Positions 3,422 to 59,755 of a DNA stretch of 64,000 nt are shown one piece after another; the first letter of the stretch is position 1, and every line of letters starts with the position of its first letter. The position numbers were made by a program, and so were the translations under genes. The notes beneath the pieces were generated by a model that did no database searches, was not told the origin of the DNA, and saw only the letters and a program-made list of their open reading frames with translations. The DNA is from Bacilli bacterium. Its GTDB lineage: Bacteria > Bacillota_I > Bacilli_A > RFN20 > CAG-826. The stretch covers positions 33,814 to 97,813 of the forward strand of contig JAKSVI010000001.1 of NCBI GenBank assembly GCA_024408095.1, read 5' to 3'.

Positions 3422-4723
3422 ATGAGAATGGTTGACCTAATTTGCAAAAAACGTGATGGACATGAATTAACAGATGAGGAAATTCGTTTTTGGATTTCAG
3501 AATATGTTAAGGATAGTGTTCCTGATTATCAATCTTCGGCTATGAATATGGCTATTTTATTTCGTGGTATGAACAAACGCGAAATAGCAACACTAACAGA
3601 TGCTATGGAACACAGTGGAACTGTTATTGATTTAAGTGCCATAGAAGGAATAAAAGTTGATAAGCATTCTACTGGAGGAGTTGGAGATAAAACAACATTA
3701 GTTTTAGCACCAATGGTTGCTGCGGTTGGAGCAAAAGTAGCTAAAATGAGCGGGCGTGGTTTAGGCCACACAGGCGGAACACTTGACAAACTTGAATCAA
3801 TTCCTGGCCTTTCAATTTCAAAATCTGAGCAGGAGATGATTAATCAAGTCAATAAAATTGGACTTGCTGTAATTGGACAAACTAGATCATTGGTCCCAGC
3901 TGATAAAAAATTATACGCATTAAGAGATGTTACCGGAACTGTGGAATCAATTCCATTAATCGCATCGAGTGTTATGAGTAAAAAATTAGCTTCAGGAACT
4001 GACGCTATTCTCCTTGATGTGACAGTTGGCAATGGGGCTTTCATGAAAAATTTGGAAACCGCAAGAGAATTATCAAAAACAATGGTTGAGATTGGAAAAT
4101 CTCTTAATAGAGATACAAAAGCCATAATTTCTGATATGAATGAACCATTAGGATTAGCAGTTGGAAATTCATTAGAAGTTAAAGAAGCTATTATGTCTTT
4201 ACACGGCAATGGACCAGATGATTTAATGGAACTTTGCTATTCAGCTGGTTCTATAATGCTTACCCAAGCAAAACTATGTAAAAATAGGGATGAAGCAAGA
4301 AAAAAACTTGAAGAAGTAATCAAGAATGGCGAAGCATTCAATAAATTTTTACTAATGGTTAAGGAACAAGGTGGAGATATTTCATATATCGAACATCCTG
4401 AAAAATTTGAAATAAGCAAAAATATTATCGAGATTAAATCTAAACAAAGTGGTTATGTTAAGAAGTGTGAAGCCTTAGATATTGGTGTTTCTGCTATGAA
4501 ACTTGGCGCCGGAAGAGAAACCATTGAAGACATAATTGATATGTCGGCAGGAATTATCTTAAATAAAAAAGTTGGATCTTATGTTAATATTGGCGATACC
4601 TTATGCACTGTTTATACAAATAAAGATAATGTTGATGACGTGCTAAAGGATATTGAAAACGCATACGAAATTACTAAAGAAAAAATCGAACCTATTAAAG
4701 TTATCAAAGAAGTTATTGAATAA
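3422..4723 (+). CDS. pdp: Pyrimidine-nucleoside phosphorylase
   Basis: 433 aa. Glycosyl transferase family 3 / thymidine phosphorylase motifs (STGGVGDKTTLVLAPMVAA). Typical N-terminus MRMVDLIxKKRDG. Confidence 0.85.
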   Translation: MRMVDLICKKRDGHELTDEEIRFWISEYVKDSVPDYQSSAMNMAILFRGMNKREIATLTDAMEHSGTVIDLSAIEGIKVDKHSTGGVGDKTTLVLAPMVAAVGAKVAKMSGRGLGHTGGTLDKLESIPGLSISKSEQEMINQVNKIGLAVIGQTRSLVPADKKLYALRDVTGTVESIPLIASSVMSKKLASGTDAILLDVTVGNGAFMKNLETARELSKTMVEIGKSLNRDTKAIISDMNEPLGLAVGNSLEVKEAIMSLHGNGPDDLMELCYSAGSIMLTQAKLCKNRDEARKKLEEVIKNGEAFNKFLLMVKEQGGDISYIEHPEKFEISKNIIEIKSKQSGYVKKCEALDIGVSAMKLGAGRETIEDIIDMSAGIILNKKVGSYVNIGDTLCTVYTNKDNVDDVLKDIENAYEITKEKIEPIKVIKEVIE

Positions 4724-13961: not shown

Positions 13962-13982
13962 AAATTTTAAAAAATTTAAAAA

Positions 13983-14031
13983 AAATTAATAAAAATTGAA
14001 AAAACTTCCGAACTACTTATATAGGAGGTTT
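13983..14031 (+). promoter_or_regulatory. Copy 1 of a conserved 49-nt leader element (promoter-like TTGAAA-N16-TATATA plus inverted repeat AACTTCC-N14-GGAGGTT covering the SD), 8 nt upstream of comEA
   Basis: AAATTAATAAAAATTGAAAAAACTTCCGAACTACTTATATAGGAGGTTT. It is at least 96% identical to copies at 33331-33379 and 57371-57419 (minus strand). Confidence 0.7.
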
Positions 14032-14039
14032 TTTTATTT

Positions 14040-14576
14040 ATGTTCAAAATAATTATCGGTGTAATTATTGCGGGAATACTTGCAATTGGCGCATTCATGA
14101 TATTAGATCCAAATATCAAAATAGCAAACAGCACGCAAGATCCAACAGTTGACACCACAAACACATTCCAAGTTTCTATTGAAGGAGAAATTTTTAAAAG
14201 TGGAACGTACACGCTACAAGAGGGCGCGACAATGAATGATTTAATTACGGCGGCTGGCGGATTAACAAATAACGCTGATGAATATGCATTCTTTGAAGAT
14301 GCTGTTTTAACAAAAGGCCAGAGCTATTATATAGCTCCAAAATTTGATGTAGGAGATATATGCAACCAAAACGAAATTAAGAAGGTGAACATTAATAGTG
14401 ATGAAAGCGAAACATTACTGTCAGTTAACGGTTTTACAACCTCAATTGTATCTTCAATCATTTCATATCGAACAGAAAATGGTGCCTTTTCAACAATTGA
14501 AGCATTGATGGATGTTTATGGAATTGGCAATGCCACGTATCGTAAAGTACGAAACTATGTAATATTGCATAAGTGA
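14040..14576 (+). CDS. comEA: Competence protein ComEA (DNA receptor: TM anchor, SLBB domain and tandem helix-hairpin-helix)
   Basis: 178 aa. N-terminal TM, SLBB-like region (GTYTLQEGATMNDLITAAGG) and C-terminal HhH (FSTIEALMDVYGIGNATYRKV). Confidence 0.8.
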   Translation: MFKIIIGVIIAGILAIGAFMILDPNIKIANSTQDPTVDTTNTFQVSIEGEIFKSGTYTLQEGATMNDLITAAGGLTNNADEYAFFEDAVLTKGQSYYIAPKFDVGDICNQNEIKKVNINSDESETLLSVNGFTTSIVSSIISYRTENGAFSTIEALMDVYGIGNATYRKVRNYVILHK

Positions 14577-16582
14577 AGCTACTATTTCTCTTTCTTTCTA
14601 TATTTTTAGGCTTTTCTTTATTTTCATCGCCAATTGGATTTGGAATAACATTCGTAATTTTAATAATCTGTTCAATTAAAAGATTTAAGGCAAAATTTAC
14701 TATTCTTTGTTTGCTTTTATTCACAGTTTTTACATTATTATCGCTTATTAAACTAAATGTTATTAGGGATTGTTACCAAGGAGTTGTAATCGAGGCGAAA
14801 GAAAATTATGCAATTTTACTATGCAGATTTGAAAGAATATATCTACCTATTAAAGAAAATAATATAGAAATAGGTGATATCATTAACGTAACTGGGACAA
14901 AAAGTGATTTAAATTTTATCACGATTCAATCACAATTTGATTTCTCACATTATTTAAATAACAAAGGTATATTTAATCAATTAAATGTTGATACCATCAA
15001 TACAATATTTAAAAATCCAATACGTCTTAAACAGATAAGAATGGATTTTTTAAATCACTTTGACGAAAATACAAAATCATTAATCGGGAGCATATTGTTT
15101 TCTGAAGGGGAAACTGGTGAAGCAACCGAATTGATGAGTCAGTTGCATCTATCAAGATTAGCAACTGTATCTGGCGTTTATATCTATGCTTTTCTTAAAA
15201 TGCTAAATGGTCTTTATTCTCGTAAATTTAGCGAGAAAAACTCTAAAATTTTAGCATTAATTACCTTATCGCCATATTTAATTTTTACATTCAATAAGTT
15301 ATCGATTAAAAGAATTGTTTTTCTATATATATTCAGATTAATAAATGAGTATAAGTTCAATAAAAAGATAGACAATTTATCCATAATTTCCATAATCGCT
15401 ATTATATTTCTATTATTAGATCCATATTTATCTAGGCAGGATTCATTCATATTAGGATTTTTTATACCGATTGTATCCCATTTTATTAATCAGGCCTTTC
15501 GAAAGAAGAAAAAAACTAAAAAATATATATTATCATCATTATTAATTTATGTTTTTTATATTCCGTTTGAAATTAAATTTTTTAACGAAATTTCACCTTT
15601 ATCAATTGTTTTTCAAACAATATATTCGCCGATATTTATTTTATTAGCTTTGTTCTCGCTTTTATGTTTTATTAAAATTCCTTTGTATCCAGTTGTTAAC
15701 ACACTAGCTAAAGGTTGCACCAACTTACTTGGATGGTGCAACAAAATTAATCCAAAACTGTTTATACCGCCATTCCCAGATTGGCTAACTCTGATTTATT
15801 ATTTATTATTCGCCCTTTGTTTGGTCTTAATAACTATTAAATTATTACCTATTTCAAGATTTATTTTTGTTATATCAATATGCTTGTCGATTATTTATGT
15901 TCTCCCAATACAAAATTTTGTTACCGCTGAAGTAGATTTTATTAATGTTGGTCAGGGTGATTCGTGTTTAATTAGATATAAAACAACAACCATTTTAATA
16001 GATACTGGTGGCTCCTTATACCTAGATGTTGCAAAAGATTCTTTAATTCCTTATTTAAAAAGTAAAAGAATCTACAACATAGATTGCGTTATTACGACCC
16101 ATGATGATAACGACCATAAAGGAGCATTAGAAAGTCTTTGCAGCAATTTTAATGTAAAAGAATATATAAATGATATCGGCAATTTTCCATTGTCTTTTAA
16201 TAATTTAACCTTAATAAACTACAATAATTTTGTTTCTGAATGGAAAGAAGAAAATGACACAAGTTTGGTGATTGGATTTGCTTTGTGTGATACAAATTTT
16301 TTAATCATGGGTGATGCACCTAAAAAAATAGAAAATCTAATTATGAAAGAGTTTGACTATATACCTTGTGACGTTTTAAAAATAGGACATCATGGTTCAA
16401 ATACATCTACAAGCGATAAATTCATTAAGTATTTGAAGCCTCAAGATGCAGTCATATCGGTTGGCAAAAATAAATACGGTCATCCAGATAGTTCAGTAAT
16501 AGGTATTTTAAAAAATAATAATGTAACAATTAAAAGAACAGATAAAATTGGCACAATTATATATTCATATTATTGCTTTTAA
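14573..16582 (+). CDS. comEC: DNA internalisation competence protein ComEC/Rec2
   Basis: 669 aa polytopic membrane protein with a C-terminal metallo-beta-lactamase domain (INVGQGDSCLI, HDDNDH, GHHGSNTSTS). It overlaps the comEA stop by 4 nt. Confidence 0.85.
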   Translation: MKLLFLFLSIFLGFSLFSSPIGFGITFVILIICSIKRFKAKFTILCLLLFTVFTLLSLIKLNVIRDCYQGVVIEAKENYAILLCRFERIYLPIKENNIEIGDIINVTGTKSDLNFITIQSQFDFSHYLNNKGIFNQLNVDTINTIFKNPIRLKQIRMDFLNHFDENTKSLIGSILFSEGETGEATELMSQLHLSRLATVSGVYIYAFLKMLNGLYSRKFSEKNSKILALITLSPYLIFTFNKLSIKRIVFLYIFRLINEYKFNKKIDNLSIISIIAIIFLLLDPYLSRQDSFILGFFIPIVSHFINQAFRKKKKTKKYILSSLLIYVFYIPFEIKFFNEISPLSIVFQTIYSPIFILLALFSLLCFIKIPLYPVVNTLAKGCTNLLGWCNKINPKLFIPPFPDWLTLIYYLLFALCLVLITIKLLPISRFIFVISICLSIIYVLPIQNFVTAEVDFINVGQGDSCLIRYKTTTILIDTGGSLYLDVAKDSLIPYLKSKRIYNIDCVITTHDDNDHKGALESLCSNFNVKEYINDIGNFPLSFNNLTLINYNNFVSEWKEENDTSLVIGFALCDTNFLIMGDAPKKIENLIMKEFDYIPCDVLKIGHHGSNTSTSDKFIKYLKPQDAVISVGKNKYGHPDSSVIGILKNNNVTIKRTDKIGTIIYSYYCF

Positions 16583-16651
16583 AGCGTAAAAATATTTTAA
16601 AAAAACATTAAAAATGTTTATTTGGTTAATATATAATTTATATTAGTAGGT

Positions 16652-17623
16652 ATGATTTATTTAATTTTTGGAACAGAAATTTCTATTATAAAAAATAGAA
16701 TAAATAAAATTGCAAAAGAAGCATTATCTGAAATCGATGAAATGAATTTTGTTCGTTTTGATGGCAATAATATTTTAATACAAGATGTCATCGATGAATG
16801 TAATTATATTTCTTTGGGATATGACCATAAAGTTGTTTCATTTGAAAATTGCTATTTTTTGCTAAAACCAAAACCACGAAATAGTATTGAATCAGATCAA
16901 GATTACAAAGCCTTAACAACATATCTTAATAACCCTAATGAACAAACAGATCTTATTCTTTCAGTTAATGAAAATAATATTGATGAGAAATCAACAATAG
17001 TTTCCATTTTAAAAGAAAAAGGAAAAGTTATGCAGGTTGCTGAACCTGATGAAAAGAATTGGCTTGATTATGTTAAAAGTTATATAAAAGACAAGCTTCA
17101 AGTTCAAATTGATAATGACGCGATGCTTGAATTAGCGGATAGAACACAAGGTGACATCGCTTTGTTTAAAAATAACGCTATAAAATTATCTTTATACACA
17201 AATCATATAACTTACGACGATATAAATTTAATGGTTCCAAGAGTTTTGGAAGATAACGCTTTTCAAATATTTAACTATCTTTTGATGAAAAAAAATATAG
17301 ATGCTGTTGCTTTATTTAACGATTTAAAAGTGTCATCTGTTGAACCTGTTACATTAATTTCTATGTTGAGCAATCAATTTAGATTACTTAGTCAAGTTTC
17401 ATATTTGGTCAAAAATGGCGATAGTGATGATGAAGGTGCAAAAAAAATCGGAATAAAACCTATAAGATTTAAAATATTACGCAAAAATTCATATACTTTT
17501 TCAGAAAGTTCTATTTTGAAAGTATTAGATGATTTGTATAATCTCGATTTACAAATAAAAAGCGGACAAGTTGACCGCTTTTATGCATTTGAATTATTTT
17601 TAATAAAATTCAAGGTTGATTAA
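16652..17623 (+). CDS. holA: DNA polymerase III delta subunit
   Basis: 323 aa. N-terminal MIYLIFGTE typical of HolA. In the conserved comEC-holA-rpsT synteny. Confidence 0.7.
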   Translation: MIYLIFGTEISIIKNRINKIAKEALSEIDEMNFVRFDGNNILIQDVIDECNYISLGYDHKVVSFENCYFLLKPKPRNSIESDQDYKALTTYLNNPNEQTDLILSVNENNIDEKSTIVSILKEKGKVMQVAEPDEKNWLDYVKSYIKDKLQVQIDNDAMLELADRTQGDIALFKNNAIKLSLYTNHITYDDINLMVPRVLEDNAFQIFNYLLMKKNIDAVALFNDLKVSSVEPVTLISMLSNQFRLLSQVSYLVKNGDSDDEGAKKIGIKPIRFKILRKNSYTFSESSILKVLDDLYNLDLQIKSGQVDRFYAFELFLIKFKVD

Positions 17624-17887
17624 TTATTTAATAGAATTAACTAATTTGGACAATTCGCTCTTTTGACGTGCAGCAGTATTTGCGTGTTGAACGTGATCGG
17701 AAACGGATTTATCAATTAATTTAAACGCACTAACTAAAAGGGATTCTGCAGATTTAAGATCTTTAGCAGCGACAGCTTCTCTAACTTTTTTCATTTCTGA
17801 ACGAATAGCAGATTTTGCAGCTTTGTTTCTTAAACGAGCTTGTTCATTAGTTTTGTTACGTTTAATTTGTGATTTAATGTTTGCCAT
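17624..17887 (-). CDS. rpsT: 30S ribosomal protein S20
   Basis: 87 aa, MANIKSQIKR N-terminus. Convergent with holA with zero intergenic spacing. Confidence 0.9.
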   Translation of the reverse strand: MANIKSQIKRNKTNEQARLRNKAAKSAIRSEMKKVREAVAAKDLKSAESLLVSAFKLIDKSVSDHVQHANTAARQKSELSKLVNSIK

Positions 17888-28589: not shown

Positions 28590-28594
28590 AGTAA

Positions 28595-28621
28595 TTAGCA
28601 ATCTCAAAAAAAGAGTGCTAA
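28595..28621 (+). promoter_or_regulatory. CIRCE operator (HrcA binding site)
   Basis: TTAGCAATC-N9-GAGTGCTAA, one mismatch from the consensus TTAGCACTC-N9-GAGTGCTAA. It lies between the promoter and the hrcA RBS. Confidence 0.85.
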
Positions 28622-28637
28622 AAAGGAGGTTGATACT

Positions 28638-29684
28638 ATGGCATTAAATAGAAGCGACATTATTCTCAAATATATTGTTGAATACTTTATTAAACATGCC
28701 CAACCAGTTGGCAGCCAAACCCTTATTGATGAATATAAGCTAAATTATTCAAGTGCTACAATACGAAACGAAATGGTTTTATTAGAAAAACTTGGATACC
28801 TAGAAAAAACACATACATCAAGTGGGCGCGTTCCTTCTAGTAAAGGTTATAAATACTATTGTGAGCACCTTAGAAGTGGTGAAGTTGACGAATCGTTGAA
28901 AAACTCGTTGCAAACAGTATTAACCCAAAAAATTCAATCAATTGAAGAGGTTATTAAAGAAAGTTGTGAGATATTATCTCATATGACAAATCTGGTCAGT
29001 GTTGTTATGGGTCCGGATGAAAAAAGTGAAAGACTCGCCAGCATACAGCTAATTCCAATTAGTGAAACAAGTATAACCGCAGTATTTGTAACCGATAAAG
29101 GATATGTCGAAAACAAAACATTTATCGTTCCAAACCAAATGAAAGTTAATGAGATTGTTCAATGTGTTCAATTATTAAACGATCGATTAAAAGGGACGCC
29201 AATTACAGAATTAGTCGACAAAATGCAATCTTTAAAACCTTTATTAAGCGATTACGTAATAAGCCACGATTTAATATATCAAGCATTGCTTGAAACATTC
29301 GTTAGATTCGCAGGCGATAGACTTAGCCTTTATGGAAGAGAAGAATTATTCAGCCATCCAGAGTTTAAAAATAATAGTGATAAGTTGTTAAATGTTCTGA
29401 AATTATTAAACGATTCAAGCATATTGAAGGAAATAGATGGCGAAATGAGGCATGATAATAATGGTGTTGCTCTAAATATTGGCGACATTGAAGGTAACCC
29501 TGACATTTCAATGGTTACTGCCAAATTCAAGCTGGGAAACGAAGGAGAAAGTACAATTGCTCTATTAGGACCGACAAGAATGGATTACGATAAAGCCATG
29601 AGCGCACTCGAATATCTATCAAATGAATTAGCTAAATATTTCGATGGTCAAAATAAAGGAGGTACAAGCGGTGGTGAAGCATAA
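28638..29684 (+). CDS. hrcA: Heat-inducible transcription repressor HrcA
   Basis: 348 aa. N-terminal winged HTH. Operon context with CIRCE. Confidence 0.9.
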   Translation: MALNRSDIILKYIVEYFIKHAQPVGSQTLIDEYKLNYSSATIRNEMVLLEKLGYLEKTHTSSGRVPSSKGYKYYCEHLRSGEVDESLKNSLQTVLTQKIQSIEEVIKESCEILSHMTNLVSVVMGPDEKSERLASIQLIPISETSITAVFVTDKGYVENKTFIVPNQMKVNEIVQCVQLLNDRLKGTPITELVDKMQSLKPLLSDYVISHDLIYQALLETFVRFAGDRLSLYGREELFSHPEFKNNSDKLLNVLKLLNDSSILKEIDGEMRHDNNGVALNIGDIEGNPDISMVTAKFKLGNEGESTIALLGPTRMDYDKAMSALEYLSNELAKYFDGQNKGGTSGGEA

Positions 29685-33318: not shown

Positions 33319-33330
33319 TTCTCAAAAAAT

Positions 33331-33379
33331 AAATTAATAAAAATTGAAAAAACCTCCGAACAACTTATATAGGAGGTTT
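33331..33379 (+). promoter_or_regulatory. Copy 2 of the conserved 49-nt leader element, 4 nt upstream of the ATG of the C39-like membrane protein
   Basis: AAATTAATAAAAATTGAAAAAACCTCCGAACAACTTATATAGGAGGTTT. It has 2 mismatches against copy 1. The inverted repeat AACCTCC/GGAGGTT is perfect here. Confidence 0.7.
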
Positions 33380-33383
33380 AAAA

Positions 33384-34577
33384 ATGTATTTTATCCAACA
33401 AAGTAATGACAGCGATTGTGGCTTCGCTTGTCTAAAAATGATTCTCGCTATTAAAAATAAGGATAAAAATTATCTATATTTGTTTTGTCCAGATATTGAA
33501 CATAAAAATTATTCTTATAAAGAGTTAATTGATTTAGCGAAACAAAACGGTTTATCTTTAAACGGTTATCGGTTTACAAACAAACTCGAAATCAAAAAGG
33601 AAAAAAATTTTCCATTTATTGCGTCAATCAGGAATGCCAATCATGCAGTAGTGATAAAGAGCATCAAGATGGGACGTGTAAAAATTTATGATCCAAGTTT
33701 AGGAGTATATTCACTTTCTCTCAAGAAATTTTGTGAGATTTGGGATGGAACAGCTCTGCTTGTTGAAAGTTTTGAAAAGAGGCAATATCCATTTGCAATA
33801 GATAATATATTATCTATAAAACATCGAATTTGTTTAGCATCTTTGCAAATTTTTGATGTTATATTATGTGCATTAGCAATTTTCTTTATGGACAAAAAAT
33901 ATCCAAGTATTTTAATGTGGATATTCACAATCGCATTTATATTGCTAGCAATTATAACGCTTTTTTATTCATTCAACATTTCCAACAAAATGGATAAAAA
34001 ATTTGAAAGTAAAGCTAGTAATGTTAAAAGTAACAAATATTACGACTACTATATAAATTGTGAAAAATTAAAAGCTAAAACAATAAGTTATCCAACCAAT
34101 TTTATAAGTGCATTGTTTATTTCCGTAATTGCGATGGTAATTATTTTATTAAACGGTTATATCAATATTGTATATATCGTTTCATGTTTAGTTGTTGCAA
34201 TTATTAGAGCGCTTCTTGTCGATCCATATACAAGAAAAAAGAATGTCACAATGTACGAACTAGAAAATAAAATGCGAAATCTTAATAATCTCAATGATTA
34301 TATGTCCAACGTAAAATTATGCCACGCCCATTCTAAAAGCTATTCCAAGGTTGTTCTAATCGGAACAATCATTGAAGTTGTTACATTAATGATGATTCCA
34401 GTCATTATGATGCTGTCGAACAACATCGCGAATGTAACTTATGTCTTATTATATTTGTGCCTTGAGTTATGTTTATCTAAATCATTACGAGATTTGCTTA
34501 ATTGTAGCAACGATAAAAACGACTACCATTTGCTTCTATCTAATTTCTACAATCAAACAAATAATAAAAACAAGTAA
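33384..34577 (+). CDS. Peptidase C39-like domain fused to a polytopic membrane domain (no ABC ATPase domain)
   Basis: 397 aa. The N-terminal roughly 140 aa contain the C39 catalytic signature QQSNDSDCGFACLKMILAI (Cys), His in ANHAVVIKS and Asp in KIYDPSLG. At least 5 predicted TM helices follow. There is no Walker A or B. Confidence 0.6.
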   Translation: MYFIQQSNDSDCGFACLKMILAIKNKDKNYLYLFCPDIEHKNYSYKELIDLAKQNGLSLNGYRFTNKLEIKKEKNFPFIASIRNANHAVVIKSIKMGRVKIYDPSLGVYSLSLKKFCEIWDGTALLVESFEKRQYPFAIDNILSIKHRICLASLQIFDVILCALAIFFMDKKYPSILMWIFTIAFILLAIITLFYSFNISNKMDKKFESKASNVKSNKYYDYYINCEKLKAKTISYPTNFISALFISVIAMVIILLNGYINIVYIVSCLVVAIIRALLVDPYTRKKNVTMYELENKMRNLNNLNDYMSNVKLCHAHSKSYSKVVLIGTIIEVVTLMMIPVIMMLSNNIANVTYVLLYLCLELCLSKSLRDLLNCSNDKNDYHLLLSNFYNQTNNKNK

Positions 34578-53509: not shown

Positions 53510-54031
53510 ATGTTTAAGCGTTTTATTCCATTTGCTCATGCTAATTCAATTTATGAAATTGATCCTTCGTTTTATAAAAAGTATGGCGTTAAGACGCTAT
53601 TGGTTGATTTAGACAACACATTAGATAGTTATAAACTATATAATCCAACGGAGAAAGCAATAAATCTTGTTAACAAGCTTAAGAAGGAAGGAATAAATGT
53701 CGTTGTAATTAGCAATAATAGGGGGCCGCGAGTATCCTCATATGCAAAAGGCTTAAATGTTCCTTACATATGGAGTGCTCGAAAACCTTTCCCCAATGCA
53801 ATTAATCGCTATATCAAACAAAATTCTTTAAAACGAGAAAATGTAATGTTTGTTGGCGATCAAATGATGACTGATGTTCTTGCTACACATTATGCGCATG
53901 TTAGAATCGTGCTAACAGAAAAAATAGTGAAGGAAGATCAGTGGACGACACATATTAATCGAATATTCGGTAAAAGAATACGCAAATATCATGCAAAACA
54001 CGGAAATTTACGTGACTGGAGGACACTATAA
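53510..54031 (+). CDS. HAD-IIIA phosphatase, YqeG family
   Basis: 173 aa. Motifs LLVDLDNTL, VVISNN and VGDQMMTD. Confidence 0.8.
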   Translation: MFKRFIPFAHANSIYEIDPSFYKKYGVKTLLVDLDNTLDSYKLYNPTEKAINLVNKLKKEGINVVVISNNRGPRVSSYAKGLNVPYIWSARKPFPNAINRYIKQNSLKRENVMFVGDQMMTDVLATHYAHVRIVLTEKIVKEDQWTTHINRIFGKRIRKYHAKHGNLRDWRTL

Positions 54032-55167
54032 TGGCAAAAGCAAAAAGAGTGGCAAGATGCTATCATTGCGGAGCAATCTTACAATCAGAAAACAAAAATG
54101 AGGAAGGCTTCATTTCCAAAGAATTTACAGGAGAAAATACACCAAAAATTCCTTACTGCAATAAGTGCTACGAAAAAATGCAAAGTTTGAACTCTGGGTA
54201 TCTTGATTTATCAGTTCAAGATGATGTTTTAAAAGTGTTAAAAGACGCCAACGCAACTGATGCTTACATTATTTGGGTTGTTGATTTATTCTCATTTAAT
54301 GGAACAATTAATCCAGAAATTGCTAAAAGTGTTAAAAAACTGAATGTTTGCGTTGTTGGAACAAAACGTGATTTATTTTCTAGAACAATTAAAAATGAAA
54401 CCTTTGAAAGATATCTTAATGAAACATTCACTAGTGTTGGAATTAAACCAGTTAAGGTTTTGATTTTGGGCAATGAAGATTCATGGGACACTGATACGTT
54501 ATATAAGAAATTACAAAAAGTTAGACAAGGTCACGATGTTTATATGATTGGCTCTTTACAAAGTGGCAAAACAACATTAATTAACAAGATGTTAAAATCT
54601 TATAAAAATAAAACTAAGTGGAATGTTAATTCTGAATTTTATCCAGATACTAACCTTAAGGTTTTAGAAATTCCATTTGATAATTCAAGTTTTTTCTACG
54701 AACTTCCAGGATGGCCTCTCGCGACTTCTATCGTCTCAAAAGTTGAGAAAGAACTGGCTAAATTTATTATTCCTAGAAAAAAGATTCATCCAACTTTAAG
54801 AACATTAGCAAGAGGCGAATCAATTTTATTAGGCGGTTTAGCTGCATACTCGTTGGTTAAAGGCAGATCAACAGCAATTAAGTTATATTGCAGTGGCGAA
54901 GTGGAAAATAAAAAGGTTCCAACTAGCAAATTAACTGAGATTATGCGTACAAACTATCATAAACGTATTTTACGTCCTGTCAGTGATAGATTTAATGACT
55001 TTAGTGATTATGACTTATTTGAATATGAAATGGAAAACGATAATCAAGTACATGACATTTCTATTGAGGGACTCTGCTGGATTTCATTTATCGGTAGAGG
55101 ACAAACTATTCGTGTAATGCTACCAAAAGGCTGTGCGCTTAAAGAATCCTTAGCAAAAATAAGATAA
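54031..55167 (+). CDS. yqeH: Ribosome biogenesis GTPase YqeH
   Basis: 378 aa. N-terminal Cys4 zinc finger (CYHCG...CNKC), circularly permuted G domain (GSLQSGKTT). Confidence 0.85.
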   Translation: MAKAKRVARCYHCGAILQSENKNEEGFISKEFTGENTPKIPYCNKCYEKMQSLNSGYLDLSVQDDVLKVLKDANATDAYIIWVVDLFSFNGTINPEIAKSVKKLNVCVVGTKRDLFSRTIKNETFERYLNETFTSVGIKPVKVLILGNEDSWDTDTLYKKLQKVRQGHDVYMIGSLQSGKTTLINKMLKSYKNKTKWNVNSEFYPDTNLKVLEIPFDNSSFFYELPGWPLATSIVSKVEKELAKFIIPRKKIHPTLRTLARGESILLGGLAAYSLVKGRSTAIKLYCSGEVENKKVPTSKLTEIMRTNYHKRILRPVSDRFNDFSDYDLFEYEMENDNQVHDISIEGLCWISFIGRGQTIRVMLPKGCALKESLAKIR

Positions 55168-55171
55168 AAAT

Positions 55172-55465
55172 ATGCTTACTCAGTCCCAAAAAAAACAATT
55201 AAAGGCACTTGCCAGTAAATTAGATGTTAAATATCAAGTCGGCAAAAAAGAAATAACTGAAAGTCTTTTAAATATGCTGAGCAACGCTTTAACAGCACAT
55301 GAACTCATAAAAATTGACATTATGAAATCCATCGATAAGCCAATTATGGAAATTGCACTTGACTTATCAAGCAAATTGAACGCTGATATTGTACAGGTGG
55401 TTGGCAGAGCAATTGTCCTTTACAAGAAAAATAAAGATAAAACCATCATAAAGCTAGTAAAATAA
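55172..55465 (+). CDS. yhbY: RNA-binding protein YhbY/YqeI (CRS1/YhbY domain)
   Basis: 97 aa. CRM-domain pattern KQLKALAS...HELIKI...VQVVGRAIVLYK. Confidence 0.8.
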   Translation: MLTQSQKKQLKALASKLDVKYQVGKKEITESLLNMLSNALTAHELIKIDIMKSIDKPIMEIALDLSSKLNADIVQVVGRAIVLYKKNKDKTIIKLVK

Positions 55466-55466
55466 T

Positions 55467-56546
55467 ATGGCTAAAATAATTTTTGGTGGCGCTTTTGATC
55501 CGATACATTTAGGCCATACTAATATGGCTGAATTAGCAAGCAAGCAATTTAATGCTGATGTTATTTTTGTTCCTGCAAAAATAGCTATTTGGAAAGAACA
55601 ATCAGTAGATTCGAAACATAAATTAAAAATGATAGAACTTGCTGTTAAAGGCCATAAAAACTTTGTAATTGATGATTTCGAAATCAAATCTGAAGGTGTT
55701 TGTTATACAATTGACACGTTAAGACATTTTTTAAAGAAATATCCAAATGAAAAATTATATCTGCTCATTGGTGTTGATCAAGTAAATAAATTTGATGCTT
55801 GGAAATGCGCCGATGAAATCTCAAATATCGCACAAATAATTTATTATTCTCGTCCTAGATATAAAGCTAATGCAAAAATCGTTTCTAAATATAACATGCA
55901 GCCTATAAATGGTGCAGGAATTGATATTTCATCAAGTGATATTAGATCGCTGAAAGACATTGCCTTAGACGAAGAAGTTATTAAATACATTGAAAAGAAC
56001 AATCTTTACTACATTCCAAGAGTTAAATCCTATCTGTCAGAATCCCGATTCAATCATTGTGTTTCTGTAGCGCATTTAGCTTATAAAATAGCTTTAACAA
56101 ATAAATTGGAAAATAGTGGTTCCTATTACATTGCAGGATTATTACACGACATCGGAAAAGATATATCGGATGAGCAAAAAAACACTATTATGAATGCTTA
56201 TTTTAAAGAATATGTGTCATTTGGAAAATGGAGTTATCACCAATTTGTTGGATCATATTTGGCAAAAAATGATTTTAAAATCACAAGCACATCCATCTTG
56301 AACGCAATTATGTTCCACGCGACAGGCTCCGATTCCATGGATATTTTAGCAAAGGTAATATACGCGTCTGATAAAATTGAACCTTCACGTGGATTTGATA
56401 GCAGTGACTTAATAAAATCTATGATGCAAAATCCTGAAATTGGCTTTTTGACTGTACTAAATGCAAACAAAATTTTTCTAACTTCTCAAAACAAGGATAT
56501 TTATAACAACTTGACCTACAAATGCTTTAAAAAATATTTAGGGTAA
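55467..56546 (+). CDS. nadD: Fusion of nicotinate-nucleotide adenylyltransferase NadD (N-terminal) with HD-domain hydrolase YqeK (C-terminal)
   Basis: 359 aa. N-terminal GGAFDPIHLGH (HxGH) nucleotidyltransferase motif. The C-terminal half has the HD motif (HC...LLHDIGKD). These are normally two adjacent genes (nadD, yqeK). Confidence 0.85.
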   Translation: MAKIIFGGAFDPIHLGHTNMAELASKQFNADVIFVPAKIAIWKEQSVDSKHKLKMIELAVKGHKNFVIDDFEIKSEGVCYTIDTLRHFLKKYPNEKLYLLIGVDQVNKFDAWKCADEISNIAQIIYYSRPRYKANAKIVSKYNMQPINGAGIDISSSDIRSLKDIALDEEVIKYIEKNNLYYIPRVKSYLSESRFNHCVSVAHLAYKIALTNKLENSGSYYIAGLLHDIGKDISDEQKNTIMNAYFKEYVSFGKWSYHQFVGSYLAKNDFKITSTSILNAIMFHATGSDSMDILAKVIYASDKIEPSRGFDSSDLIKSMMQNPEIGFLTVLNANKIFLTSQNKDIYNNLTYKCFKKYLG

Positions 56547-56798: not shown

Positions 56799-57367
56799 TT
56801 AGCCATTATTATTCACAATCATTGCAAAATAAGCATTAATTAATAGGTTGACTTTAACCTCATTTAACATTGTAACATATCCATATTCTTCATCATCTTC
56901 TTCGGATAAATGTAGATTTTTGTCCCCAATAGCTTGACGTTTGTAAATTCGTAATTTATCAATTGCGCGTATTTGGTTAACAACAGCCAATGTTGAAGAT
57001 GTTGTGCCTAATCCAGGTATTATGCCTAAATCAAGATCACTTCTTGGATGTGCTCCGTTGTGATTTGTTTTTAAAGACAAACAATAACAAGCGGATTAAA
57101 TTCATTTGAATCCATAAGTACAACGCCATAATGCCTATTTGAAAATTCAGCATTAACATTTAATCCCCAATCAATTTCATAAATTTCACCGCGTTTAAGA
57201 TTGTATCTTAACTTATATTGCTCTGAGAAAGTTATATATTCCATCTGCCTTTTCATCCAATCAAGTTGATCTCTCATTCCTCCATAACGACCACCTTCAG
57301 ATGTAGGAAACCTGTCCTTTTTTATAACGCCAAACTTTTCATTGGAGCTAACTTCTAACTCATTCAT
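56799..57367 (-). pseudogene. MazF/PemK/EndoA-family endoribonuclease toxin gene interrupted by a frameshift at about 57071-57080, with an unusual roughly 55-aa N-terminal extension
   Basis: Two overlapping minus-strand ORFs (57071-57367 and 56799-57080) together align to B. subtilis EndoA/NdoA and Kid: RGEIYEIDWG...GVVLMDSNEFNPLVIVC | LSLKTNHNGAHPRSDLDLG...AVVNQIRAIDKLRIYKRQAIGDKNLHLSEEDDEEY. The break falls in the run CTTTAAAAAC. No antitoxin gene is adjacent. Confidence 0.6.
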
Positions 57368-57370
57368 AAA

Positions 57371-57419
57371 AAACCTCCTATATAAGTAGTTCGGAAGTTT
57401 TCTCGATTTTTATTAATTT
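57371..57419 (-). promoter_or_regulatory. Copy 3 of the conserved 49-nt leader element (minus strand), ending 3 nt upstream of the mazF-like ATG
   Basis: The minus strand reads AAATTAATAAAAATCGAGAAAACTTCCGAACTACTTATATAGGAGGTTT. It is identical to copy 1 except that TTGAAA becomes TCGAGA. Confidence 0.7.
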
Positions 57420-57434
57420 TTTTGAAAATTTTTT

Positions 57435-58019
57435 CTAAATTTTAATTAAAGCTTTGCTTTCTTTTTTTATTTTTTTCTCATAAATCAATGAAGATATCAT
57501 TCTAGAGGTCGCTTCTCTTGTTAAAAATAACTTATTTGCAAGTTCAGTTATACTTTTGTAATGAATGATTCCACCATTAATTTGAAAATAATAATCTAAA
57601 CGCTCAGTTGCCTTTGAAAAATTAAGAATTTTTATCTGCGAATTTAAAGTTTTACAAAATTCTGATTGCATATTGAGATAGCGTGATAGAAATTCTGTGT
57701 TATCTTTAAGTATGGAAACAAAATTATCCTTGGAAAAAAAGATTACTTTTGATTGTTCGACTGAAACAACATCGCCTTTATATGCAGAATCGCTCGAAAA
57801 AATCAAATTATTGCCAAACATCATACCAGGTTTAATAATATTAAAAACTACTTCCTTGCCACTATCTAAATATGAAACAATCTTTAGCTTACCTTGAAGC
57901 AAAACACCTATGTTACTACAAATTTCATCTTCTGAGAAAATTGTCGAGCCCTTTAAAAAGCTTTTAATATAACCTGTGCTAAATTCGTCTTTAGTTAATA
58001 CATCTAAAATATTTGTCAT
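57435..58019 (-). CDS. Crp/Fnr-family transcriptional regulator (cNMP-binding domain plus C-terminal HTH)
   Basis: The cyclic-nucleotide-binding-like beta-roll (GVLLQGKLKIVSYLDSGKEVVFNIIKPGMMFG) and C-terminal HTH (ITELANKLFLTREATSRMIS). The ORF-track start at 58145 would overlap the divergent lipoprotein gene by 68 nt, so the internal Met at 58019 is preferred. Confidence 0.7.
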   Translation of the reverse strand: MTNILDVLTKDEFSTGYIKSFLKGSTIFSEDEICSNIGVLLQGKLKIVSYLDSGKEVVFNIIKPGMMFGNNLIFSSDSAYKGDVVSVEQSKVIFFSKDNFVSILKDNTEFLSRYLNMQSEFCKTLNSQIKILNFSKATERLDYYFQINGGIIHYKSITELANKLFLTREATSRMISSLIYEKKIKKESKALIKI

Positions 58020-58021
58020 AT

Positions 58022-58037
58022 CGTGATTATAATCACA
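58022..58037. promoter_or_regulatory. CRP-like palindromic operator GTGA-N6-TCAC in the divergent intergenic region between the Crp/Fnr gene and the lipoprotein/permease genes
   Basis: cGTGATTATAATCACa is a perfect 4-6-4 palindrome matching the CRP half-site core TGTGA-N6-TCACA. It overlaps a TATAAT-like hexamer. Confidence 0.5.
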
Positions 58038-58077
58038 TATTTGTATATAAAAGTCCACTATTATATTAAGGAGAATT

Positions 58078-58998
58078 ATGAAGAATTTACTATTACTACC
58101 ATTACTAAGCATATCATTAACATCCTGCGGAAATTGGATATCCAAAGGATTAACAATTATTTCACCAACCGGAGCACCAGCAATTGCATTTTATAACCAT
58201 TATGCCAACAGCGCTTTTGAAACAAATAGCATCCCAGGCAATATAGTTGCGATGATGGTTGGCAAAAATGCAAAAGATATAGTTGTAATTGATATTACAA
58301 GTGGAATATCTGCTATTAATCAAGGAGTCAATTACAAATTGGCTGCATGTTTAACATTTGGCAATTTCTATCTATGTGGCACAGGAAATGATGAAAATAA
58401 GCAATTAAATCCAGGAGATAAAATTATATTGTTTAAACGACATGGACTCCCAGATATTGTATTTCATTACTTGTATGGCAACGAATATGATTCACAAATA
58501 CAATATGTCGATAGCGCAGCAACAGCGAGTACCTGCCTTGCAAAAGGAAAAGATTTGAATAATAATCCAATTGACTATGTTTTCCTAGCGGAACCTGCGG
58601 TTACGACGGTTTTAAACAACAAACAAGCACCAACTTATGGAAAATCATATGTTTATAGAAGTATTCAAGAAGATTTTAAAGAAAAATCTGGTAAAGATAT
58701 GATTCAAGCTTCTATTTTCATTAATAACAATGTTACAAAATCTGATGCTGTTTCATTTCTGAATGGTCTTCAAAAAGATATAGCAGAAGGAATTTTAAAC
58801 CCTTCTGTTGTAAAAGAATGTATAGAAAAAGATGCTAATAATCGATATGGAATGACACCTGATCAAGCATATAATTGTTTGTTAACAAATACTATTGGCT
58901 TAGGTTTTAAAGATGCATACGAAATGAAAGATGACATAGATAACTTTGTTACTCTTTTTGGATTGGAAAAGACACATGAAGAAATTTATTTCAAATAA
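58078..58998 (+). CDS. Lipoprotein, probable ABC-transporter substrate-binding component
   Basis: 306 aa. Lipobox LTSCG after an N-terminal signal peptide (MKNLLLLPLLSISLTS-C). Cotranscribed with a downstream TauT/NitT-type permease. Confidence 0.55.
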   Translation: MKNLLLLPLLSISLTSCGNWISKGLTIISPTGAPAIAFYNHYANSAFETNSIPGNIVAMMVGKNAKDIVVIDITSGISAINQGVNYKLAACLTFGNFYLCGTGNDENKQLNPGDKIILFKRHGLPDIVFHYLYGNEYDSQIQYVDSAATASTCLAKGKDLNNNPIDYVFLAEPAVTTVLNNKQAPTYGKSYVYRSIQEDFKEKSGKDMIQASIFINNNVTKSDAVSFLNGLQKDIAEGILNPSVVKECIEKDANNRYGMTPDQAYNCLLTNTIGLGFKDAYEMKDDIDNFVTLFGLEKTHEEIYFK

Positions 58999-59755
58999 AT
59001 ATTTTTTAACCCTCATTGGTATTATTTTGTTCCTTGGATTATGGGCTCTTATTGCAGCCATTATTCATGAACCAATTTTAATATTTCCAGGGCCAATAGA
59101 TACAATAAAATATTCATTTAAATTATTAGGACAACCAGAAACATATCTACATATCGGCTATTCAGTTTTGAGACTTCTAATTGGATTTCTCATTAGTGCA
59201 GTTTTAGCGTTGATTTTAGGTCTAATTGTAGGTAATTTTAAAAAATCAGGTTATGTATTTAAGCCCACAATTATAGCTCTTAAAACAATTCCGACAGCGG
59301 CTTTAGTTTTATTGCTTCTCAGTGCTGTTGGCGCATCTAACACTCCTATTTATGTGGTTGCAGTTATATGCTTTCCAATTCTATTTGAAGCTGTAGCAGG
59401 AGGAATAGGAAATATTGACCCACAAATCCTTTTTGCGCTTAAAGTAGATGGACAAAATTTTTTCATTGAAAATATAAAAGTAAAAATACCATTAGCAGCA
59501 CCATATATAGTTGTAGGAATGGCATCAAGTTTTGCATTATCTTTTAAAATAGAAATTATGTCTGAAGTCATCGCTGGATCAACTGGCTATGGACTTGGAT
59601 CGGCTATTTCAAAAGCATCAACGGGAAGTGACATGCTAAATAAAGTTCCCTTATTTTCATATGCTTTTATTGCAATCCTACTAGCGTTATTAACATCATT
59701 TCTTTCGTTTGGAATTAAAAAAATTTTTGCATATAAGAAAAAGAGAGCTAGTTAA
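58946..59755 (+). CDS. ABC transporter permease (binding-protein-dependent inner-membrane component, NitT/TauT-like)
   Basis: 269 aa, 6 TM helices. EAA-type loop FEAVAGGIGNIDPQILFALKVDGQNFFIENIKVKIPLAAP. The likely true start is the internal Met at about 58976. No ATPase gene is adjacent. Confidence 0.7.
   Translation: MLLFLDWKRHMKKFISNKYFLTLIGIILFLGLWALIAAIIHEPILIFPGPIDTIKYSFKLLGQPETYLHIGYSVLRLLIGFLISAVLALILGLIVGNFKKSGYVFKPTIIALKTIPTAALVLLLLSAVGASNTPIYVVAVICFPILFEAVAGGIGNIDPQILFALKVDGQNFFIENIKVKIPLAAPYIVVGMASSFALSFKIEIMSEVIAGSTGYGLGSAISKASTGSDMLNKVPLFSYAFIAILLALLTSFLSFGIKKIFAYKKKRAS

What the first reader, a model, noticed from the sequence alone, without database searches (positions are those of the whole stretch)
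56799..57419. MazF/EndoA-like toxin gene with a frameshift, a 55-aa N-terminal extension, no antitoxin, and driven by the comEA-type leader
The two overlapping minus-strand ORFs reconstruct a full MazF/PemK fold. The C-terminal half QIRAIDKLRIYKRQAIGDKNLHLSEEDDEEY aligns closely to EndoA QIRTIDKQRLTDKITHLDDEMMDKVDE. The frame break falls at the homopolymeric CTTTAAAAAC (about 57071-57080), precisely within the conserved VIV-x-T strand. This could be a genuine pseudogene, a sequencing indel in an A-run, or a recoding site. The N-terminal roughly 55 aa preceding the RGEIYEID start of the toxin fold have no counterpart in canonical MazF. No MazE/RHH antitoxin gene precedes it. The position immediately upstream is occupied by copy 3 of the 49-nt leader, with a mutated -35.
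Basis: partly seen in the sequence, partly recalled or inferred. Interest (0 to 1): 0.6.

Follow-up and report, generated by a model that had tools for sequence, protein, structure and literature searches.

The report
Broken copy of solitary long MazF
This is a recently broken copy of a MazF-type RNA-cutting toxin gene that a whole group of uncultured gut bacteria keeps at one fixed chromosomal spot, always without an antidote gene, with an extra N-terminal helix, and here behind the same control sequence as the DNA-uptake genes.

Summary
Two overlapping minus-strand ORFs (57071-57367 and 56799-57080) are halves of one MazF/PemK gene. Only the repaired protein passes Pfam's PemK threshold, and a model of the closest intact ortholog superposes on solved MazF structures. 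The lesion is one base lost from an invariant proline codon (CCT to C-T, at 57075/57076), not a slip in the A-run. An independent Logan assembly carries the same lesion, it is the only split gene in 64 kb, and no intact near-identical allele exists in public data. A recent pseudogene is the best reading; recoding is not supported.

The 55-aa extension is not an oddity of this gene. It marks a conserved long-form MazF subfamily with more than 230 intact relatives. In 55 genomes of uncultured gut and rumen Bacilli the gene sits in the same slot, next to the convergent yqeH-yhbY-nadD/yqeK operon. It is conserved about as well as its housekeeping neighbours and never has a neighbouring antitoxin gene.

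The upstream leader is one of three near-identical copies in the window; the others precede comEA-comEC and a C39-peptidase gene. It can fold into a hairpin that hides the ribosome-binding site. Such a helix occurs in 14 of 52 orthologous leaders and 0 of 150 control genes. Function, and co-regulation with DNA uptake in other genomes, remain inferred.

The parts
57071..57367 (-). ORF-A. It encodes residues 1-97 of the ancestral protein: an unstructured tail, the long N-terminal helix and the first three strands of the MazF barrel. It then reads Leu and a premature TAA (57073-57071). NCBI annotates it as MCQ2814745.1, 'PemK/MazF family toxin'.
56799..57080 (-). ORF-B, in the -1 frame relative to ORF-A. 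It encodes residues 99-189: the rest of the barrel, an acidic disordered loop and the C-terminal helix. Its listed TTG start (57080-57078) has no ribosome-binding site. NCBI annotates it as MCQ2814744.1, 'hypothetical protein'.
57075..57076 (-). Site of the lesion. One base of the invariant Pro98 codon is missing (ancestral TGY CCN TTA AAA ACA; here TGT C-T TTA AAA ACA).
   Evidence: the Logan contig L056 is identical here
57218..57301 (-). Coding region of the conserved N-terminal helix (residues 23-50; motif QLDWxKRQxEYxxFSExY; W37 and Y44 are invariant).
56934..57196 (-). MazF/PemK domain (residues 58-145 of the repaired protein), interrupted by the frameshift.
57371..57419 (-). Copy 3 of the conserved leader of about 49 nt, lying between the stop codon of the cNMP-binding regulator gene and the ATG of the MazF-like gene.
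57393..57402 (-). 5' arm of the predicted hairpin (GAAAACTTCC), containing the anti-Shine-Dalgarno sequence.
57369..57378 (-). 3' arm of the hairpin (GGAGGTTTTT). It contains the Shine-Dalgarno GGAGG (57378-57374), 6 nt before the ATG (57367-57365).
13978..14044 (+). Leader copy 1, directly upstream of comEA (14040-14576), comEC (14573-16582) and holA.
33326..33392 (+). Leader copy 2. It follows a terminator-like hairpin after dnaJ and lies directly upstream of a 397-aa membrane protein with a Peptidase_C39 domain (33384-34577).

Best explanation
The locus is a recently inactivated copy (pseudogene) of a conserved, antitoxin-less 'long-form' MazF/PemK-family gene. The ancestral product of about 189 aa has five parts: a variable tail, a 28-residue helix with invariant Trp and Tyr, a MazF beta-barrel, an acidic disordered loop and a C-terminal helix. 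In this strain one base was lost from the invariant Pro98 codon. Translation therefore stops after residue 98, and the C-terminal half has no start signals of its own.

Shown: family membership and fold; the exact lesion; its presence in a second assembly; intactness in about 53 of 55 other genomes; a fixed chromosomal position; absence of any adjacent antitoxin gene in the whole family; and a leader shared with comEA-comEC and a C39-peptidase gene in this genome.

Inferred, for the intact relatives: the protein is an endoribonuclease kept harmless in two ways rather than by a separate antitoxin. The first is a leader whose inverted repeat pairs the ribosome-binding site with an upstream anti-SD arm, so translation is off by default. 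The second may be the N-terminal helix acting as a built-in regulator. Because this genome uses the same leader for its DNA-uptake genes, the protein would be made together with the uptake machinery. A plausible role is to impose a transient growth or translation arrest. This strain has lost that function.
For: Domain: the repaired protein scores 35 bits on PemK_toxin against a cutoff of 23.1; the separate halves do not pass.
Fold: an AF2 model of the 69%-identical ortholog P0001 has core pLDDT of 88-94. Foldseek's top hits are S. aureus, B. subtilis and M. tuberculosis MazF, with TM about 0.75 and probability 1.0.
Family: more than 230 intact homologs of 176-228 aa cover the extension. W37, Y44, H79, P92, D111, Q132, K138 and R140 are invariant in 119 sequences.
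Lesion: orthologs read TGC CCR TTA AAA ACA; the window lacks one base of the CCN codon.
Independent support: the Logan assembly of SRR17543907 is 100% identical over 3129 bp, including the lesion. No intact allele above 69% identity exists in 5.8 billion clusters. The window is 92.8% coding with no other split gene.
Recency: all family-invariant residues are kept. pN is 0.17 and 0.23 in the two halves, against a saturated pS of about 0.76.
Synteny: all 55 genome loci carry the same neighbour genes, and nearly all include the convergent yqeH-yhbY-nadD/yqeK block. Median identity is 58%, against 49-72% for the housekeeping neighbours.
No antitoxin: upstream gaps are mostly 41-134 nt, and no conserved small ORF lies on either side.
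Leader: three copies in the window. The predicted hairpin has a free energy of -9 to -11 kcal/mol. An SD-sequestering helix is present in 14/52 orthologous leaders and 0/150 other genes in the same loci, Fisher p = 1.3e-9. The same architecture precedes comEA in other species.
Against: No read-level data were inspected, so a sequencing error is not formally excluded. The Logan run may be the read set the MAG was built from.
RNase activity is untested. The catalytic assignment is ambiguous: EndoA Arg25 aligns with R78 in the HMMER alignment but with invariant H79 in MAFFT, and EndoA Thr48 aligns with K100.
The N-terminal helix has no detectable similarity to MazE or to any solved chain. Its contacts in a dimer could not be modelled.
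The transcription start is unknown. If transcription starts downstream of the anti-SD arm, the hairpin never forms in RNA. RNAalifold on an unbiased MAFFT alignment found no consensus pairs.
Co-occurrence of the identical leader on comEA and the MazF-like gene is shown in this genome only. Two metagenome scans failed to provide a second same-genome case.
Confidence: 0.7

Rival explanations
1. Sequencing or assembly indel: the gene is intact in the living organism and the frameshift is an artefact of the MAG.
For: It is a single-base difference in a metagenome-assembled genome. The rest of the gene is flawless and keeps every invariant residue. The Logan run that reproduces the lesion may be the same read set.
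Against: The missing base is in a CC dinucleotide, not a long homopolymer. A different assembler gives the identical sequence over 3129 bp. The other 64 kb contain no split gene. No intact near-identical allele is present in any public source searched.
Confidence: 0.12
2. Programmed ribosomal frameshift (recoding): the full-length protein is made by slippage at CTTTAAAAAC.
For: ORF-A ends in CUU UAA A, which superficially resembles the CUU UGA C site of prfB, and the two ORFs overlap by 10 nt.
Against: The frame needed is -1. A prfB-type +1 slip from CUU to UUU enters the third frame, which stops after 11 codons. There is no X XXY YYZ heptamer in the ORF-A frame. All other full-length orthologs examined are encoded in a single frame; the one broken case (L049) is a point stop, not a frameshift. 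A slipped product would lack the invariant Pro98. The two other fragments that looked broken at this spot are a low-coverage chimera and a truncated remnant.
Confidence: 0.02
3. An ordinary type II MazEF toxin whose antitoxin was missed or is encoded elsewhere in the genome.
For: NCBI names ORF-A a type II toxin-antitoxin system toxin. Only 64 kb of the genome could be searched for a partner.
Against: No small conserved ORF flanks the gene in any of 54 genomes, and there is no antitoxin-like ORF in the window. The gene is syntenic and vertically inherited across a deep clade, and is conserved like housekeeping genes; in established knowledge, type II modules are mobile and patchily distributed. 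Distant long-form relatives on plasmids and prophages are also solitary.
Confidence: 0.05
4. The family uses the MazF fold but is not a toxic RNase. It could be a nucleic-acid-binding or regulatory factor of the DNA-uptake programme, which would explain why no antitoxin is needed.
For: The canonical catalytic pair is not cleanly conserved: Arg25 aligns with R78 or H79, and Thr48 with K100. The divergent syntenic versions in L052-L054 replace R78 with Asp. The gene is universally solitary yet stably inherited. No PADLOC defence model matches it.
Against: The RNA-binding motifs typical of EndoA-type MazF (NQIRxIDKxR, PLK[TS]) are retained, and an invariant His lies at or next to the catalytic position. 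Occasional loss by a nonsense or frameshift mutation (window, L049) and tight masking of the ribosome-binding site are what one expects for a harmful product.
Confidence: 0.15

Closest known systems
EndoA/MazF of Bacillus subtilis (YdcE) and MazF of Staphylococcus aureus (Pfam PF02452; PDB 4MDX, 4ME7, 4MZP)
   Same: They share the fold (Foldseek TM about 0.75), the Pfam domain, the C-terminal helix, and the motifs G(D/E)I, NP.V.V.P and QIR.IDK.R.
   Different: This family is about 70 residues longer, with a conserved N-terminal helix and an acidic disordered insert. No mazE gene is adjacent in any genome, and the gene occupies a fixed syntenic position. Profile similarity to the solved structures is only E about 1e-3. 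The residues aligned with the catalytic Arg and Thr are ambiguous or changed.
Uncharacterised long-form PemK proteins of plasmids and prophages (PHROG 1412, labelled 'antitoxin mazE-like'; Staphylococcus phage StB27 gp02; B. subtilis pSX01705-2 WP_157694098.1; Natranaerobius pNTHE02 WP_012451960.1)
   Same: They have an N-terminal helix with the same W...Y spacing. The core motifs VVPLSS, HP and NQMR.SK.RI are shared, and the His equivalent to H79 is invariant. They are solitary genes with no annotated antitoxin.
   Different: Identity is only 21-30%. They sit on mobile elements, next to rep or integrase genes, rather than in a fixed chromosomal slot, and the phage forms have longer C-terminal regions. 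None has a tested function, and the 'antitoxin' label in PHROGs looks like a mis-transfer because the match is to the PemK core.
Single-polypeptide (fused) toxin-antitoxin proteins such as CapRel-SJ46 (PMC9712102)
   Same: This is a conceptual parallel only: a toxin domain with no separate antitoxin gene and an extra segment in the same chain that could autoinhibit it.
   Different: The toxin fold is unrelated. Autoinhibition by the N-terminal helix is not shown here, and the helix shows no similarity to MazE. The chromosomal, syntenic, clade-wide distribution is unlike a defence island gene, and there is no PADLOC hit.
Late-competence regulons marked by a shared upstream element (for example the streptococcal ComX cin-box TACGAATA and SigH-dependent com promoters of staphylococci; from my own knowledge, not tested here)
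   Same: A near-identical short element lies directly upstream of comEA-comEC and of a few other genes in the same genome. Its core TCCGAAC loosely resembles CGAA-type -10 boxes.
   Different: No cognate sigma factor or regulator has been identified. Here the element overlaps the ribosome-binding site and forms an inverted repeat. No MazF-type gene is known in those regulons, and other com operons lie outside the window.

Membership tests
MazF/PemK toxin family (PF02452) | Sequence match to the family profile above the curated threshold | tested here: met
   The repaired protein scores 35 bits against a 23.1 cutoff, over residues 58-145. The halves alone score 11.8 bits and nothing. All listed homologs but one carry PF02452.
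MazF/PemK toxin family (PF02452) | MazF/CcdB-type SH3-like barrel fold with a C-terminal helix | tested here: met
   The AF2 model of ortholog P0001 has pTM 0.71 and core pLDDT of 88-94. Foldseek's top 50 PDB hits are all MazF, with TMt 0.66-0.77.
MazF/PemK toxin family (PF02452) | Catalytic residues of EndoA-type MazF (Arg25 and Thr48 in B. subtilis) | tested here: inconclusive
   HMMER aligns R78 with Arg25, whereas MAFFT aligns invariant H79 with it. Thr48 aligns with K100, followed by T/S101.
MazF/PemK toxin family (PF02452) | Endoribonuclease activity and growth inhibition | not testable with these tools
   This needs expression and cleavage assays with an intact ortholog.
MazF/PemK toxin family (PF02452) | Intact open reading frame in this window | tested here: not met
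   One base is missing from the Pro98 codon, giving a premature TAA at 57073-57071.
Type II toxin-antitoxin module (MazEF operon) | An adjacent co-transcribed antitoxin gene (MazE/PemI: AbrB, RHH or similar) | tested here: not met
   No conserved small ORF lies on either side in 54 genomes, and upstream gaps are mostly 41-134 nt. No antitoxin-like ORF exists in the 64-kb window.
Type II toxin-antitoxin module (MazEF operon) | Patchy, mobile-element-like distribution | tested here: not met
   All 55 genome loci carry the same neighbour genes, and nearly all include the convergent yqeH-yhbY-nadD/yqeK block. Conservation is comparable to the housekeeping neighbours.
Programmed ribosomal frameshift site | A slippery sequence that fits the required frame change | tested here: not met
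   The frame needed is -1. There is no X XXY YYZ heptamer, and a +1 slip at CUU UAA A enters the wrong frame.
Programmed ribosomal frameshift site | Frameshift conserved among orthologs | tested here: not met
   All other full-length orthologs are encoded in one frame, and the single broken one (L049) carries a point stop rather than a frameshift. The apparent fragments are artefacts or remnants.
Regulon sharing the comEA leader (competence-type) | The same cis-element upstream of comEA and of this gene in one genome | tested here: met
   There are three copies, more than 90% identical over about 49 nt, at 13978, 33326 and 57371-57419, with 0 expected by chance.
Regulon sharing the comEA leader (competence-type) | The association is conserved in other genomes of the clade | tested here: inconclusive
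   The same anti-SD/loop/SD architecture is found on 14/52 MazF-like leaders and on comEA leaders of other species (8, 5 and 4 bp), against 0/150 control genes. No second genome could be obtained with both leaders.
Fused (single-chain) toxin-antitoxin | An extra segment of the same chain occludes the toxin's active site | tested here: inconclusive
   The N-terminal helix is confidently modelled (pLDDT about 90). However, only a monomer summary was available, and the helix shows no sequence similarity to MazE.

The most novel reading that the evidence does not exclude
A large clade of uncultured gut and rumen Bacilli has domesticated an antitoxin-free MazF endoribonuclease as a core chromosomal gene. 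The protein is co-expressed with the DNA-uptake machinery through a shared leader that masks the ribosome-binding site, and it carries its own regulator in the form of the conserved N-terminal helix. It would be a built-in growth-arrest or RNA-reprogramming arm of a competence-like state. That would be a new way of controlling a MazF toxin, by translational masking plus cis-regulation instead of a labile antitoxin.
Probability: 0.25. Interest if true: 0.65.

Novelty: new variant of a known kind. Interest (0 to 1): 0.45.

Why it matters
MazF toxins are normally understood as one half of a two-gene module that can be mobile and dispensable. This family breaks that pattern. It is always solitary, is inherited vertically at one chromosomal position across at least 55 species-level genomes, and is conserved like a housekeeping gene. 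In the one genome where it could be checked, it shares its control region with comEA-comEC.

If the inferred control is right, it gives a testable example of a toxin domesticated into a cellular programme. It would also give a first handle on how competence-type genes are regulated in a large, uncultured, genome-reduced gut lineage. For genome annotation the lesson is practical: the two NCBI entries (MCQ2814745.1 and MCQ2814744.1) are one pseudogene, and PHROG 1412's label 'antitoxin mazE-like' appears to be wrong.

Tried and rejected
1. A-run slippage as the cause of the frameshift. Rejected: the DNA alignment places the missing base in the Pro codon.
2. Recoding. Rejected on frame arithmetic, the absence of a slippery heptamer, and orthologs encoded in a single frame. 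I first suspected a hotspot because several database fragments start near residue 93-98. Two of these are the window's own halves. L062 is a contig of 0.76x coverage that jumps into a spoVG-like gene, and L063 is a truncated remnant at a contig start.
3. Known RNA families in the leader or downstream gap: no Rfam match.
4. Sigma-70 promoter in the leader: not called by the scan.
5. Defence-system membership: no PADLOC hit.
6. Similarity of the N-terminal helix to MazE or any solved chain: nothing below E = 0.3, and no Pfam hit.
7. Literature on solitary or fused long MazF proteins, or on competence in this clade: nothing relevant found.
8. Finding more leader copies outside the window. The metagenome scan with the window's leader gave 0 hits. 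The scan with the leader of a species known to be in JGI data returned only the MazF-like leader itself. No extra copies exist within three 20-kb comEA loci.
9. An unbiased consensus fold of the leaders. RNAalifold found no pairs because variable loop lengths put the arms out of register.
The AFDB50 library was unavailable.

Full report
**1. Observation**

The minus strand between 56799 and 57367 carries two overlapping ORFs, 57071..57367 (98 aa) and 56799..57080 (93 aa). Against Pfam, the N-terminal ORF scores only 11.8 bits on PemK_toxin and the C-terminal ORF gets no hit. When one base is restored, the joined 189-aa protein scores 35 bits against a gathering cutoff of 23.1, over residues 58-145.

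**2. The lesion**

More than 230 intact homologs of 176-228 aa exist, at 50-69% identity and covering 80-99% of the query. They are invariant or nearly so across the break, reading NPLVxVCPLK(T/S)N, and Pro98 is invariant in the 22-sequence alignment.

- At the DNA level the orthologs read TGC CCG/CCA TTA AAA ACA. The window reads TGT C-T TTA AAA ACA.
- The missing base therefore belongs to the Pro codon, between 57076 and 57075.
- ORF-B is in the -1 frame relative to ORF-A. The ORF-A frame has no X XXY YYZ slippery heptamer.
- A prfB-like +1 slip on CUU UAA A would enter the third frame, which terminates after 11 codons.
- Database fragments that seemed to begin at the same place turned out to be the window's own halves, a 0.76x-coverage chimeric contig and a truncated remnant.

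Recoding is therefore not supported.

**3. Real mutation or error?**

Several results favour a real mutation.

- The exact 98-aa product and the same 93-aa second ORF occur on a Logan contig assembled from SRR17543907. That contig is 100% identical to the window over 3129 bp.
- The window's source is an NCBI 'Bacilli bacterium' MAG in which the halves are annotated separately, as MCQ2814745.1 and MCQ2814744.1.
- No intact allele closer than 69% identity exists among 5.8 billion protein clusters.
- The window is 92.8% coding, it has no other candidate split gene, and its largest non-coding gap is this locus.
- The gene has no second lesion and keeps every family-invariant residue. Against the closest ortholog, pN is 0.17 and 0.23 for the two halves, while synonymous sites are saturated.

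I conclude that this is a recent, genuine frameshift (about 0.8). Sequencing error is the main rival (about 0.12), because the Logan run may be the same read set and I could not inspect reads.

**4. What the gene is**

An AlphaFold2 model of the 69%-identical ortholog P0001, built with 119 family sequences, has pTM 0.71 and pLDDT of 88-94 over the core. It shows:

- a disordered tail;
- one long helix (residues 23-50);
- the beta-barrel;
- a disordered acidic loop (residues 145-163);
- a C-terminal helix.

The 50 best PDB matches are all MazF proteins, with TM about 0.75 normalised to the target.

Sequence similarity to solved MazF/EndoA is remote, at a profile E of about 1e-3. The catalytic assignment is ambiguous. 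HMMER aligns R78 with EndoA Arg25, whereas MAFFT aligns the invariant H79 with it. Thr48 aligns with K100, which is followed by T/S101.

The N-terminal helix is a conserved family feature with the motif QL(D/E)WIKRQLEYxxFSEKY, in which W37 and Y44 are invariant in 119 sequences. It has no detectable similarity to MazE or to any solved chain.

**5. Genomic context across relatives**

A genome scan returned 55 loci, all from uncultured gut, rumen or sediment Bacilli/Erysipelotrichales-type MAGs.

- All 55 loci carry the same neighbour genes, and in nearly all of them the gene lies in the same slot. That slot is downstream of deoB, and in some genomes also of an ABC-transporter pair and a cNMP-binding regulator. 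It is convergent with the yqeH-yhbY-nadD/yqeK operon.
- Across 27 loci with all markers, the protein's median identity to the window's is 58%. The corresponding values are 49% for nadD/yqeK, 52% for yqeH, 64% for yhbY and 72% for deoB.
- Upstream intergenic gaps are mostly 41-134 nt. No small ORF on either side recurs across genomes, apart from rsfS of the convergent operon.
- In the window, none of the 17 free-standing small ORFs is antitoxin-like.
- One other genome (L049) has an in-frame stop inside the helix. L044 is cut off by its contig end, and the rest are intact.
- Three genomes (L052-L054) hold a very divergent 206-aa version in the same slot.

This is a vertically inherited, selectively maintained, solitary gene. 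It is not a classical type II module.

**6. Wider relatives**

An exhaustive profile search found only 607 cluster representatives at E <= 1e-3, and 24 at E <= 1e-30. Many of these are proteins of 180-290 aa that match from the helix onward.

- PHROG 1412, a phage family of about 237 aa labelled 'antitoxin mazE-like', matches residues 36-104 at E = 1.2e-15.
- Annotated examples sit next to the integrase in Staphylococcus prophages, and directly after rep on small Bacillus and Natranaerobius plasmids. No antitoxin is annotated beside them.
- These relatives keep the W...Y spacing and the invariant His.
- BFVD holds many long 'PemK-like' phage proteins.
- I found no experimental work on this subfamily, and no PADLOC model matches.

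**7. The leader**

The 67-nt gap upstream of the gene contains a conserved element of about 49 nt, at 57371-57419. It recurs at 13978-14044, directly before comEA-comEC-holA, and at 33326-33392, directly before a membrane protein with a Peptidase_C39 domain.

- Each copy ends in GGAGG followed 6-11 nt later by the start codon.
- Each copy can form a hairpin of 8-10 bp, AAAAC(U/C)UCC with GGAGGUUUU, and a 14-nt loop. The free energy is -9.2 to -11 kcal/mol, with z-scores of -2.1 to -3.3.
- The closest ortholog's leader is recognisably homologous, and its arms pair as CCTCCTA/TAGGAGG.
- I applied a strict test: a contiguous helix covering at least 4 of the 5 SD bases, at least 3 G-C pairs, and a loop of 4-22 nt. 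By this test, 14 of 52 MazF-like leaders have such a helix, against 0 of 150 other genes in the same loci (Fisher p = 1.3e-9).
- Among window ORFs of at least 120 aa, only comEA and the C39 gene have helices of 8 bp or more.
- ComEA leaders from three other species show the same architecture, with helices of 8, 5 and 4 bp.

There are four caveats.

- The transcription start is unknown.
- A sigma-70 reading (TTGAAA-16-TATATA) is not called by the scan. If that reading were correct, transcription would start after the anti-SD arm.
- RNAalifold on a MAFFT alignment finds no consensus pairs, because variable loops put the arms out of register.
- I could not obtain a second genome with both leaders.

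There is no Rfam match.

**8. Interpretation**

Shown:
- the locus is a frameshifted copy of a conserved, solitary, syntenic long-form MazF gene;
- its leader is shared with the DNA-uptake genes in this genome.

Inferred:
- the intact protein is an RNase, because the fold and the RNA-binding motifs are kept while the catalytic residues are altered;
- it is restrained by masking of its ribosome-binding site, and perhaps by its own N-terminal helix, rather than by an antitoxin;
- it is produced together with ComEA/ComEC.

By analogy with the growth arrest of competent B. subtilis cells (my own knowledge, not tested here), a transient arrest function is plausible.

The main functional rival is that the fold has been re-used for a non-nuclease role (about 0.15).

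**9. Verdict**

The framing needs correcting in three ways: the cause is not an A-run slip, the gene is not an orphaned mobile toxin, and the extension is not unique to this gene. The window's copy is an ordinary pseudogene. The family it belongs to is a new variant of a known kind and is moderately interesting.

Noticed in passing
window 33384-34577 (+), leader copy at 33326-33392: A 397-aa membrane protein with an N-terminal Peptidase_C39 domain (72.8 bits) but no ABC ATPase carries the same leader as comEA and the MazF-like gene. In streptococci, C39 domains process double-glycine signal or bacteriocin peptides, so this hints at a peptide-signalling link in the regulon.
   Followed up: partly
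L049 3914-4460 (CANQQL010000012.1): The ortholog in this rabbit-gut MAG has an in-frame stop inside the N-terminal helix (RQLEYISY*DRY). This is a second, independent inactivation of the gene in the clade.
   Followed up: partly
L052, L053, L054 (about 3842-4621): Three genomes hold a very divergent 206-aa PemK-domain protein in the same syntenic slot. It is 32-35% identical, lacks W37, and has Asp in place of R78. This could be rapid divergence or replacement by a paralog.
   Followed up: partly
L059 1860-2459; L060 1926-2486; L061 2468-3211: Distant long-form PemK proteins stand alone directly after the rep gene on small Bacillus and Natranaerobius plasmids, and next to the integrase in Staphylococcus prophages. 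RefSeq and PHROG 1412 label the phage ones 'antitoxin mazE-like' although the match is to the PemK toxin core, so the label is probably a mis-annotation.
   Followed up: partly
L068 6409-8405: In one strain of a related species, comEC is split into 135-aa and 436-aa ORFs. In sister contigs (L067, L069) it is a single 666-aa gene. DNA-uptake genes therefore also decay sporadically in this clade.
   Followed up: no
window 57435-59755 compared with L027, L040 and others: The cNMP-binding (Crp/Fnr-like) regulator gene lies directly upstream of the MazF-like gene on the same strand in this window only. In other genomes it is about 2 kb away, in the opposite orientation, beyond the ABC-transporter pair. 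This suggests a local inversion of the regulator-SBP-permease block.
   Followed up: partly
window 14040-17887 and 54031-56546: The orders comEA-comEC-holA-rpsT(-) and yqeH-yhbY-nadD/yqeK match the two halves of one contiguous B. subtilis region (yqeG...yqeM-comER-comEA-comEB-comEC-holA-rpsT; recalled from memory, not checked). Here the halves are 40 kb apart. The gene convergent with the yqe operon is the MazF-like gene carrying a comEA-type leader.
   Followed up: no
window 28590-28640 (+): Besides the leader copies, the only window gene with an SD-pairing helix is the 348-aa ORF starting at 28638. The helix is 7 bp with a 20-nt loop, and the sequence is unrelated to the leader.
   Followed up: no
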